Source: Anolis carolinensis (Eukaryota). From it: a stretch of 64,000 bases of DNA. Both the position numbers and the translations under genes were made by a program. Below, one piece after another: positions 25,850 to 32,112 of the stretch. The stretch is taken from the NCBI RefSeq assembly GCF_035594765.1, contig NC_085845.1, positions 188,744,897 through 188,808,896 on the forward strand, read 5' to 3'. Below the pieces are notes generated by a model. It did no database searches. It saw only the letters and a list, made by a program, of their open reading frames with translations, and was not told where the DNA came from. The first letter of the stretch is position 1, and the number at the start of each line of letters is the position of its first letter.

Positions 25850-25852
25850 ATG
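25850..25852 (+). CDS. TUBA8-like exon 1 (ATG only)
   Basis: GCACCATG|GTAAGG: strong Kozak context directly followed by a donor, as is typical for alpha-tubulins. Confidence 0.75.
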
Positions 25853-28800
25853 GTAAGGAGAGGAAGGGAAAATGAGTTCCCATCAGGACAGGTCCTGGGT
25901 TCCAGAAAAATGGAGTCACGGATGGAGATGCTTTTCTTTTCCACCTGCTTTCCTCTGGACCTCTGCCAGTGTGATGAACTTTTGGTCCTCCAGATGTATT
26001 GGGCTCATTTCCATAGTCCTTTAACTTCTGCATCCTGGGTAGGCTAGTGGAGAGTTAGATTTCAAGACCATCTGAAACACCAGTGTTTCCTTGTCCCTGG
26101 CAAGAGAGAGAGAGAACAAAGGATATAAACAATGTTCTCATGTTGATGCAGCACAGAATGGTAGTTTCAGCAATAGTCAACTTTCTGTATCCACAGATTC
26201 TGTATCTGTGGATTCTGCCATCCATGGCTTGAAAATATTTTTTAAATTCAAAAATCAAATCTTTGTTTTCCCATTTTATACAAGGGTCACCATCCTACTA
26301 TACCATTGTATATAATGGGACTTGAGTATCCACAGGTTTTGGTATCTGCAAGGAATCCTGGAATCAAACTCCAGTGGAGGATGACAAGGGCCCACCGTAT
26401 ATATAAAACAGTTCAAATTAGTCCTGTGGCGCAGGCTGGTAAACAGCTGCTGCAATAAATCACTCTGACCATGAGGTCATGAGTTCGAGGCCAGCCTGTG
26501 GCAGGGTGAGCACCCATCAATTAAAAATAAAATATAGCCCCTGCTCGTTGCTGACTTAGCAACCCGAAAGATAGTTGCATCTATCAAGTAGGAAATAAGG
26601 TACCACTTATAAAAGTGGGGAGGCAAGTTTAACTAATTTATAACGTTGGAATGAGGAAGTGAGGAAGTGCCATCAGAGTGGATGATGAAGCAGCTGCTCC
26701 CCCCTGTGGCCAGAATCGAACATCCCCTCAGGAGAAGGTTAAATTGCCTCTGCGTCTGTCTGTCTGTTGTCTGTCTCAATGTGTTTATGGGCATTGAATG
26801 TTTGCCCTATATGTACATAATGTGATCCGCCCTGAGTCCCCTTCAGGGTGAGAAGGGCGGAATATAAATACTGTAAATAAATAAATAAATAAATAAATAA
26901 ATGTGTTTTGCTCAGTCTATATTTGAATGTCTTCAAGATTTTGTACTAGCCTCGGATACATATGCATATATAGCTTTGTAGAGGCACAATAATTATTGTG
27001 TCACACAAAATAGTGTGTATTATGTATTTTGTGACCAGACTCTATTTTCTGTTCTGTAGCGTGAATGCATCTCAATTCATGTTGGCCAAGCTGGGGTTCA
27101 GATTGGCAATGCATGTTGGGAACTCTTCTGCCTGGAACATGGAATCCAGCCGGATGGAACATTCAAGGAAAATAGCGTAAACATCACTGATGATTCCTTT
27201 GCTACATTCTTCAGAGAAACAGGCACTGGGAAGCATGTGCCAAGGGCCATCATGGTGGATTTGGAGCAAACTGTAGTTGGTGAGTGCATAGTGAATACCG
27301 GATTAAAGGAAGACCACTACTCTACATCATATAGTTGGTCTTTATGACTTTCTGTGCATTGTTAATTCTTTCTCTATGTACTTATGCTTCGTTTTTACTT
27401 CTTGGTTAGTTTGGACTTACGGTATAAAAAGGGTTGCAACTCGATATTATCAGTAGGACCAGCATGCAAATAAGACAAGCAAAAGAATGGAAGGGACACA
27501 GAATGTTTGATGGAACATTTATTTCCTGGGCAAATTGAACTGCTGATGGAAGAAGATGTATCCCAATGACTTACAGGCCTATCTAGAATCACACTGGAAG
27601 ATCCCGAAATGCATCTGTGAAGGGGCAACAGTAGATGGTCCCTGGATGAGGAAGTGAGAGCAGTTGGTGCTCTTGGGATGAACATGAGAATAAGGATTAT
27701 AGAAAGTGGCCTTCCTTTTTCGCTTCTAGGGACCTCCTCTACTCTGGTTTGGAATTTTGACTTGAAACTTAGCACTACAACTTGAAAACTATGGCAAACA
27801 CTGCTGAATTTTGAGATGTTTGGCACAATAACCTGATGACTTACATTCACCACACACAGTGTGGGTATTCCTTTTTACTGTTACAGATACCATAACAAAG
27901 GCAAAGGAACTTTATTGCACTAGTTATCTGACTTCTACATTACAGTTAATAAACTAGACTGGCTTCCAATGTTGGCTGTCCTTGCATTAAAGGTTAGTGT
28001 CTTTTTTGGTTTGTGTTTTGATCTGTTTTCTTTGTTTGTTTGTTTGTTTAACTTCTGCAGATGAAGTGCGAACTGGCACTTACCGACAGCTTTTCCATCC
28101 AGAACAGCTCATCACCGGCAAGGAAGATGCTGCCAATAACTATGCCCGTGGTCACTACACCATTGGGAAAGATAGGATTGAGATAGCATTGGATCGCATT
28201 CGAAAACTGGTATGGCATAATTAATTTAATAGAGCAGTTTCATTTTGGCTCACCCTGGGGATACTTGGTGGAAAACACATAGCATAAAGACTTGGGAGTC
28301 TCTTTTACTCAAACTGCCTCATCACAGTAGAGCATGAATCCACTTTAAGTCCAGTTTCTGCGTCCTACAGAATTCTGGGGTTTGTGGTTTGGTGAGGCCC
28401 AGGACCTGTTTGGCTGAGCTGTTTAAAGCCTCCTCCCTAAAGTGGATTTAAATTGGATCCAAGCTCTAGTATGATGAGATCCTAAGATGACCGGGGCACC
28501 TACTTGTTTAATACGTTTGCAGGAGAGGGGATTTCTGATGCCCTAATTTTTCCTGTTCCAACATAACAATAACCCCCTCCTTCTTTGAAATCCACATTTA
28601 CCGTTGCAATTCCTGGAGATAAAGGAGATGTAAGAAACTGTAAATACTTAATGCTGGATCCTCCCATCAGGATTGGTATATCCTATGCTGCAGCCCTGAC
28701 ATGAACGTGCTTTCTCTGTTACTTGAGAAAGCAACTTCCTATTGGCACCTTAGGCTCCTTCACTTTTAACAATCTTGAATGTACATTTTAATTATAATAC

Positions 28801-31800: not shown

Positions 31801-32112
31801 TTCTTCCAATCCAACCAGGTTGGCATCAATTACCAACCTCCTACTGCAACCCCTGGAGGTGATCTGGCCAAAGTTGAGCGTGCCGTCTGCATGCTGAGCA
31901 ATACCACCGCCATTGCCGAAGCCTGGGCAAGGCTCAACCACAAATTTGACCTTATGTTTGCCAAGAGGGCTTTTGTGCACTGGTATATCGGCGAAGGCAT
32001 GGAAGAAGGGGAATTCGTAGAAGCTCGAGAAGATCTGTCTGCACTGGAGAAGGACTATGAGGAAGTGGCAACTGACTCCTTTGACTCACTACTTGACAGC
32101 GAGGAAGTTTAA
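25850..32112 (+). CDS. Tubulin alpha-8-like paralogue, complete CDS, join(25850..25852,27060..27279,28061..28209,29555..30235,31819..32112), 448 aa
   Basis: MREC start, GGGTGSG motif, same 5-exon structure as TUBA8, no stops or frameshifts, C-terminus [14 protein letters not shown]. Confidence 0.93.
26421..26900 (+). mobile_element. tRNA-derived SINE with L2-like 3' end
   Basis: Homologous to 45362-45828. Confidence 0.8.
27060..27279 (+). CDS. TUBA8-like exon 2
   Basis: [73 protein letters not shown]; 220 nt. Confidence 0.95.
28061..28209 (+). CDS. TUBA8-like exon 3
   Basis: [39 protein letters not shown]; 149 nt. Confidence 0.96.
29174..29493. mobile_element. MITE family A
   Basis: Same terminal repeats, TA duplication. 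Confidence 0.88.
29555..30235 (+). CDS. TUBA8-like exon 4
   Basis: [10 protein letters not shown]...WCPTGFK; 681 nt. Confidence 0.96.
30987..31328. mobile_element. Tc1/mariner-type MITE family C (CAGTGTTCCCTCAC terminal repeats)
   Basis: Terminal repeats, TA duplication; second copy at 42121-42464. Confidence 0.82.
31819..32112 (+). CDS. TUBA8-like exon 5
   Basis: VGINYQPP...DSEEV*; 294 nt. Confidence 0.95.

What the first reader, a model, noticed from the sequence alone, without database searches (positions are those of the whole stretch)
25850..32112. Intact second TUBA8-type gene with a remodelled, largely modification-resistant C-terminal tail
Seen: full ORF, canonical splice sites and MREC retained, but the tail is [14 protein letters not shown] (2 Glu, ends in Val) versus [14 protein letters not shown] (6 Glu, ends in Phe) in the neighbour; K40 is absent and the 35-45 loop is one residue shorter. 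Known: the terminal aromatic is needed for CAP-Gly binding and the detyrosination cycle, tail Glu residues take polyglutamylation and glycylation, and K40 is the acetylation site. Human has a single TUBA8 here; I recall tandem TUBA8A/B in chicken, which needs checking. Inference: a specialised sauropsid isotype outside most of the tubulin code.
Basis: partly seen in the sequence, partly recalled or inferred. Interest (0 to 1): 0.7.

Follow-up and report, generated by a model that had tools for sequence, protein, structure and literature searches.

The report
Squamate TUBA8 duplicate with rewritten tail
This is an intact, already annotated second copy of the tubulin gene TUBA8, shared by reptiles and birds and likely used in developing sperm; in every lizard and snake examined its tail has been rewritten the same way, which is predicted to remove it from one main microtubule-tagging cycle but not from all of them.

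Summary
Observation confirmed: an intact five-exon alpha-tubulin gene (448 aa, identical to RefSeq XP_003220856.1 of Anolis carolinensis) lies between PEX26 and canonical TUBA8. It is an old sauropsid duplicate: it groups with turtle, crocodilian and bird copies (100/100), the bird ones named 'alpha-2 chain', likely the chicken testis isotype of 1987. Loss of K40 is not special: the neighbour and human TUBA8 lack it too. The tail is the real feature: 15 of 15 squamate orthologues have a 14-residue tail with a hydrophobic middle ending in Ile/Val; 0 of 37 other tails do. It cannot carry a terminal Tyr/Phe (detyrosination cycle and CAP-Gly binding predicted lost) but keeps 2-4 Glu, so 'modification-resistant' is overstated. 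Spermatid use is inferred from chicken and mouse, not shown in lizards. Known gene; squamate tail and conversion not found in 10 paper searches. The scan had not noted it elsewhere.

The parts
25850..25852 (+). Copy A (the finding), exon 1: start codon in a gcaccATGg context, GT donor follows
27060..27279 (+). Copy A exon 2 (220 bases; loop one codon shorter; clade markers T50A, S54R, V66I, P72Q in neighbour numbering)
28061..28209 (+). Copy A exon 3 (clade markers E113D, S114R, V118A)
29555..30235 (+). Copy A exon 4, 95.3% identical to the neighbour's exon 4; homogenised tract about codons 129-324, similarity starts about 20 bases inside intron 3 (29535)
31819..32112 (+). Copy A exon 5 to the stop (D392N, Y399F, V409I, S419V, A426S and the tail)
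32068..32109 (+). Remodelled 14-residue C-terminal tail
32435..32440 (+). First AATAAA downstream of the stop (candidate poly(A) signal)
37607..47079 (+). Copy B, canonical TUBA8 (exons 37607-37609, 41038-41260, 43553-43701, 44508-45188, 46786-47079; 449 aa; tail identical to human TUBA8)
15626..21638 (+). PEX26 coding exons, the upstream synteny marker
   Evidence: tblastn with turtle PEX26 P0121, five pieces

Best explanation
This is the PEX26-proximal duplicate of TUBA8 shared by reptiles and birds, an intact alpha-tubulin likely made mainly in spermatids, whose squamate tail ends in Val/Ile and is therefore predicted to stay outside the tyrosination/detyrosination cycle and to bind CAP-Gly proteins poorly. 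How it would work: the GTP-binding core is canonical and is kept nearly identical to the neighbour's by recurrent gene conversion of exon 4 (similarity shown, conversion inferred), so the protein should pair with beta-tubulin and co-assemble into ordinary microtubules (inferred). What makes it a separate isotype is encoded in exons 2, 3 and 5: the lumenal loop, helix H3, helices H11-H12 and the tail, which are the surfaces read by lateral neighbours, motors and MAPs (positions shown, surface roles from established tubulin structure). Built into transient spermatid arrays (around the acrosome, manchette), it would act as a hard-wired, permanently non-tyrosinated subunit with fewer glutamylation/glycylation sites, diluting plus-end tracking and tail-dependent severing or motor signals (inferred, untested).
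For: Intact frame, splice sites, identity with the RefSeq protein. Orthology: on exons 2, 3 and 5 without the tail, 11 copy-A rows from squamates, turtles, alligator and birds form one clade at 100/100 (25 rows, 209 columns); a clade of the two anole genes (p-AU 7e-53) and a clade of all squamate copies (p-AU 0.0009) are rejected (a 43-row tree gave 91). Same gene order in fused database models: PEX26 then A in skink and two turtles, A then B in Varanus, Zootoca and a tinamou. Purifying selection: dN/dS about 0.07 between the paralogues outside exon 4. Tail: 15 of 15 squamate A tails are 14 residues and end in Ile (11) or Val (4); 0 of 37 turtle, crocodilian, bird A and copy-B/mammal/axolotl tails do. 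Conversion: synonymous differences in 23 of 215 exon-4 codons against 78 of 173 elsewhere, p=1.6e-14; exon 4 is 76-83% identical to eight other alpha-tubulin loci of the genome; both paralogues share non-consensus exon-4 residues in 9 of 9 species pairs. [quoted passage not shown] Terminal aromatic needed for CLIP-170 binding (PMC9917122).
Against: No expression or tissue shown for a squamate. That chicken TUBA8B and the 1987 testis isotype are copy A rests on NCBI's names for other birds and on my recall; the chicken copy-A protein was not retrieved (the one chicken protein seen, P0348 'alpha-4', is copy B). Two Glu remain next to the end, and most other squamates keep a third at 441, so the tail is not modification-proof. 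Turtle orthologues also have only 3-4 tail Glu while mostly keeping Phe, and birds lost the aromatic independently in most rows (10 of 13), so tails of this copy vary widely outside squamates. Mouse Tuba8 knockouts are fertile (PMC5384676), and the TUBA8 tail contributed little to dendrite growth in mouse neurons (PMC12977328). Some shared exon-4 residues may be ancestral or parallel changes, or assembly collapse in draft genomes.
Confidence: 0.6

Rival explanations
1. The squamate tail gained a new binding or turnover signal rather than only losing marks: its conserved Phe-x-x-hydrophobic core reads like an ATG8-binding (LIR) motif, and the Glu-Ile/Val end like a DCAF12-type C-terminal degron or class III PDZ ligand (motif definitions recalled), which would help clear spermatid microtubules on schedule.
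For: Hydrophobic residues are fixed at 443 and at the end in 15 of 15 squamate tails; 13 of 15 match a recalled xLIR pattern, 0 of 37 other tails do. Constant length and pattern argue for positive constraint, not mere loss.
Against: One substitution of the ancestral tail makes the pattern, and shuffling the last nine residues gives a match in 25% of 20,000 trials. Pogona and Phrynosoma do not match; Phrynosoma lacks the penultimate Glu.
Confidence: 0.15
2. A somatic specialist: the isotype serves muscle, brain or the marginal band of nucleated red cells and thrombocytes rather than spermatids.
For: Mammalian TUBA8 is high in muscle as well as testis (PMC5384676); TUBA8B is named in chicken studies of breast muscle, trachea/spleen and intestinal organoids (search listing only).
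Against: The bird data I could read point to spermatids; the listing does not show level or direction in somatic tissues.
Confidence: 0.13
3. Relaxed constraint: the tail no longer matters and drifted, the gene being a dispensable spare kept intact partly by conversion from its neighbour.
For: Copy A branches are longer than copy B; bird copy-A tails vary freely; mouse knockout is fertile.
Against: Same length and pattern in geckos, a skink, lacertids, an amphisbaenian, iguanians and snakes (15 of 15); dN/dS about 0.07 in the unconverted exons.
Confidence: 0.1
4. A young or silent pseudogene-to-be.
For: No direct expression evidence was obtained here.
Against: Intact orthologues across sauropsids, low dN/dS, canonical splice sites, start context and poly(A) signal.
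Confidence: 0.02

Closest known systems
Mammalian TUBA8 (human P0175, TBA8_HUMAN; mouse P0410) and the neighbouring copy B
   Same: Five-exon structure, position next to PEX26, no K40, divergent 35-45 loop, TDSF tail start, 89-90% protein identity
   Different: Tail ends Val instead of Phe, 2 Glu instead of 6, loop one residue shorter, clade-specific changes in exons 2, 3 and 5; mammals sampled show only the canonical type
Bird 'tubulin alpha-2 chain' (e.g. Anser XP_013028426.2, Lagopus XP_042745623.1); likely the chicken testis-specific alpha-tubulin of Pratt, Okamura and Cleveland 1987 and chicken TUBA8B
   Same: Orthologous clade (100/100), same place between PEX26 and copy B, shared marker residues, mostly no terminal aromatic
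   Different: Bird tails stay acidic and variable, without the hydrophobic middle or Ile/Val end; loop three residues shorter rather than one. Link to the 1987 gene and to the symbol TUBA8B is by name and recall, not by sequence
TUBA4A (encoded without terminal Tyr; two identical-tailed loci L004/L005 in this genome)
   Same: Genetically non-tyrosinated alpha-tubulin
   Different: TUBA4A ends in Glu-Glu, stays Glu-rich and can in principle be tyrosinated; copy A is capped by an aliphatic residue

Membership tests
Alpha-tubulin | Full tubulin domain with MREC start, GGGTGSG loop and catalytic Glu254 | tested here: met
   All read in the translation; orthologues carry PF00091 and PF03953
Alpha-tubulin | Forms heterodimers with beta-tubulin and co-assembles into microtubules | not testable with these tools
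   Inferred from 85-87% identity to four ordinary alpha-tubulins
TUBA8 subfamily | Groups with mammalian TUBA8 apart from other alpha-tubulins | tested here: met
   100/99 against three outgroup alpha-tubulins
TUBA8 subfamily | Five exons, downstream of PEX26 | tested here: met
   the human arrangement is recalled
TUBA8 subfamily | No Lys40, divergent residues 35-45 | tested here: met
   PMC5384676
Canonical TUBA8 isotype | Acidic tail ending in Phe | tested here: not met
   Ends SEEV; the neighbour meets it. It is a TUBA8 paralogue, not the canonical isotype
Sauropsid copy-A clade (bird alpha-2 chain) | One clade with bird alpha-2 proteins, marker residues, PEX26-proximal position | tested here: met
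Sauropsid copy-A clade (bird alpha-2 chain) | Identity of the clade with chicken c-alpha-2 / TUBA8B by sequence | tested here: inconclusive
   Chicken copy-A protein not among the cluster members listed; 1987 paper not held
Sauropsid copy-A clade (bird alpha-2 chain) | Testis/spermatid-restricted expression | tested here: inconclusive
   No run on record as RNA and no tissue labels
LIR (ATG8-interacting) motif | Acidic-flanked aromatic-x-x-Leu/Ile/Val core in a disordered segment | tested here: met
   13 of 15 squamate tails, pattern recalled; 25% by shuffling
LIR (ATG8-interacting) motif | Binds ATG8-family proteins through that core | not testable with these tools
   Needs a binding assay

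The most novel reading that the evidence does not exclude
At the origin of lizards and snakes, a spermatid alpha-tubulin exchanged the universal acidic, tyrosine-cycle tail for a fixed hydrophobic short linear motif that recruits a different partner (ATG8, a C-degron ligase or a PDZ protein), while recurrent conversion of exon 4 keeps its GTPase core interchangeable with canonical TUBA8: a natural tail-swap experiment on the tubulin code.
Probability: 0.15. Interest if true: 0.7.

Novelty: new variant of a known kind. Interest (0 to 1): 0.38.

Why it matters
Vertebrate alpha-tubulin tails are almost all acidic and end in Tyr, Phe or Glu. A tail capped by Ile/Val and held constant across lizards and snakes is a natural variant for asking what the terminal aromatic and the mid-tail glutamates do, with canonical TUBA8 next door as a control that shares almost the same core. 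The exon-4 homogenisation maps isotype identity to exons 2, 3 and 5, and warns that whole-gene trees, dN/dS and exon-4 primers or reads confuse the two copies. The gene itself is annotated and its bird counterpart likely known since 1987, so the gain is modest unless the tail proves to have its own partner.

Tried and rejected
Expression: the run search for exon 5 plus 3' flank listed no holder on record as RNA; 18 of 24 rows hold 74-100% of the words, 14 of them guessed to be RNA, from 5 studies, without tissue labels; no evidence either way. Complex prediction of the last 30 residues with an unnamed GABARAPL2-like protein (P0459): no answer, score 0.05 against a mark of 0.34, controls not run. 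AlphaFold2 on a 29-row alignment gave pLDDT 33.6, unusable; no fold search made. Exon-4 protein tree: largely unresolved, paralogues mixed (that script hit its time limit before the full-length tree). Whether the duplication predates the mammal split: unresolved (p-AU 0.26). Lineage-specific duplication in anoles or squamates: rejected. A retrocopy or third TUBA8 copy: none among 21 exon-5 matches in the genome (lower bound). K40 loss as a special feature: rejected. Assembly chimera as the cause of exon-4 similarity in this genome: unlikely, since 32 differences are spread along the exon and Anolis sagrei copy A shares R229H and S293T. Tuatara: not among the proteins listed, so the tail cannot be dated between lepidosaur and squamate stems. 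The 1987 and 1988 chicken papers were not held. Earlier scan notes: four, on Giardia and Naegleria tubulins, none relevant.

Full report
Observation. The window holds two alpha-tubulin genes on the + strand downstream of PEX26 (five tblastn pieces at 15626-21638). The first (copy A, the finding) has exons 25850-25852, 27060-27279, 28061-28209, 29555-30235 and 31819-32112, all introns GT-AG, and gives 448 residues without stops; the second (copy B, 37607-47079) gives 449. They agree at 405 of 450 aligned positions. Copy A is letter for letter XP_003220856.1, 'tubulin alpha-4 chain isoform X2' of Anolis carolinensis. K40 is missing from both copies and from human TUBA8 (PMC5384676, first quarter of the text and passages read), so it does not set copy A apart. 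A search of the genome with exon 5 gave 21 matches, 11 of them close alpha-tubulin last exons; only copy A has this tail.

What it is. Protein searches and cluster listings returned two kinds of sauropsid TUBA8. On exons 2, 3 and 5 without the tail, so that neither the tail nor exon 4 drives the result, 11 copy-A rows from squamates, turtles, alligator and birds form one clade at 100/100 in a 25-row tree (rows chosen by hand from a 43-row tree with support 91). Holding the two anole genes together (p-AU 7e-53) or all squamate copies together (p-AU 0.0009) is rejected; whether the duplication is older than the split from mammals is open (p-AU 0.26). Fused database models show the same order PEX26, A, B in skink, turtles, monitor, Zootoca and tinamou. 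Markers of the clade include T50A, S54R, V66I, P72Q, E113D, S114R/K, V363T and A426S (neighbour numbering). The loop after residue 36 is full length in turtles, one shorter in squamates and three shorter in crocodilians and birds. Between the paralogues, outside exon 4, dN is 0.098 and dS 1.38.

The tail. Of 52 tails tabulated, 15 of 15 squamate copy-A tails (geckos, skink, lacertids, amphisbaenian, iguanians, snakes) are 14 residues long, carry hydrophobic residues in the middle and end in Ile (11) or Val (4), with 2-4 Glu. None of the other 37 does: turtles end in Phe in 6 of 8, crocodilians in 3 of 3, bird copy A in an aromatic in 3 of 13. I left out models with truncated or plainly mis-predicted ends (P0132, P0138, P0141, P0154, P0166, the A half of P0174) and redundant rows, and took only 13 of the many copy-B and mammalian rows. 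D392N and Y399F, near the motor-binding helices, are also fixed in 12 of 12 squamate rows. In the anole the Glu at 441, 442, 443 and 445 are gone and the two before the end remain; most non-snake squamates keep Glu441. So the gene is sauropsid, the tail squamate, and it is depleted of, not free from, modification sites.

Exon 4. This exon is 95.3% identical between the copies, against 81% for exon 3, 77% for exon 5 and about 78% for exon 2 with flanks; synonymous differences affect 23 of 215 codons against 78 of 173 elsewhere (p=1.6e-14), the last 28 codons are at background level, the similarity begins about 20 bases inside intron 3, and third-position GC in copy A rises to 0.66 from 0.45-0.52. 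Eight other alpha-tubulin loci of the genome are only 76-83% identical over the same stretch. In 9 of 9 species for which both copies were at hand, the two share exon-4 residues absent from the consensus, e.g. N299S in the anole, V270M in a sea turtle, R280K and P298V in garter snake, E279D with Y282H in a bustard; some may be ancestral, parallel or due to draft assemblies. Recurrent gene conversion is the simplest reading (inference).

How it likely works. Shown: intact gene, canonical core, orthology, constraint, tail pattern. Inferred: co-assembly into microtubules; spermatid expression. [quoted passage not shown] Chicken TUBA8B marks spermatids (PMC12690856, passages and supplement rows: 97.4% against 12.1% of cells, TUBA8A not found in the stored, cut file; PMC12351910, passage and supplement rows). 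That TUBA8B is copy A is my recall; the one chicken protein retrieved, NP_001383359.1 'alpha-4', is copy B. A turkey study shows TUBA8 high in testis but its locus spans 32 kb and may merge both copies (PMC7647744, passages and supplement rows). Mouse Tuba8 sits at the forming acrosome and in spermatid cytoplasm, is absent from sperm, and knockouts are fertile (PMC5384676). The terminal aromatic is needed for CLIP-170 recruitment (PMC9917122, passage); glutamylation and glycylation need tail glutamates and tune motors and severing (PMC8246997, PMC12838686, passages). That an Ile/Val cap blocks both detyrosinases and tyrosine ligase follows from their known specificity (recalled), not from a test. 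I give 0.6 to a spermatid isotype that is a hard-wired non-tyrosinated, less modifiable subunit.

Rivals. A gained motif (0.15): 13 of 15 squamate tails fit a recalled LIR pattern and none of 37 others, but shuffling gives the match in a quarter of trials. A somatic role (0.13), relaxed constraint (0.10) and a silent gene (0.02) are set out in their sections. Against a large role for the tail, swapping the mouse TUBA8 tail changed dendrite growth only slightly (PMC12977328, passages).

Novelty. The gene is annotated and the bird pair is named. Ten full-text searches, of which some were aimed at reptiles, listed no paper on the squamate tail or on conversion between the copies; only the listed rows were seen, and subscription journals, figures and bioRxiv supplements were not searchable. 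A chick-human tubulin comparison (bioRxiv 10.64898/2026.02.19.706651, one section and passages) notes altered TUBA8 tails without reptiles in the parts read. Verdict: new variant of a known kind, interest 0.38.

Noticed in passing
window exon 5, neighbour position 409 (about 31985-31990): Copy A carries Ile at 409 in both anoles and Varanus (3 of 12 squamate rows); V409I in human TUBA1A is a tubulinopathy variant that weakens TOG/XMAP215 binding (PMC9666403 passages). Position 419, also a site of a human variant (S419L), is Val in 12 of 12.
   Followed up: partly
bird copy-B proteins P0348, P0161, P0316 and others: Bird canonical TUBA8 ends two residues early in Glu, without the terminal Phe; several galliform and waterfowl rows share Ser410 in both copies, a hint of conversion in exon 5.
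   Followed up: no
window 15626-25850: PEX26 ends about 4.2 kb before copy A on the same strand; several database models fuse PEX26 with copy A (P0094, P0110, P0375), either read-through or annotation error.
   Followed up: no
L004 and L005 (G000:C1:240.17-240.20 Mb): Two TUBA4A-like loci 29 kb apart with identical last-exon protein ends; L013-L020 likewise show two identical-tailed beta-tubulin loci (L015, L016): recent duplicates or conversion.
   Followed up: no
L009 (G000:C5:201160682-201163951): An alpha-tubulin with an unusual longer tail ending in Phe.
   Followed up: no
window 25259-25558, 29169-29501, 33354-33646, 41304-41638; 30984-31330 and 42118-42466; 26424-26904 and 45371-45839: The same three repeat families (one with terminal inverted repeats) sit in introns of both genes at non-matching places, 72-93% alike; independent insertions, not remains of the duplication.
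   Followed up: partly
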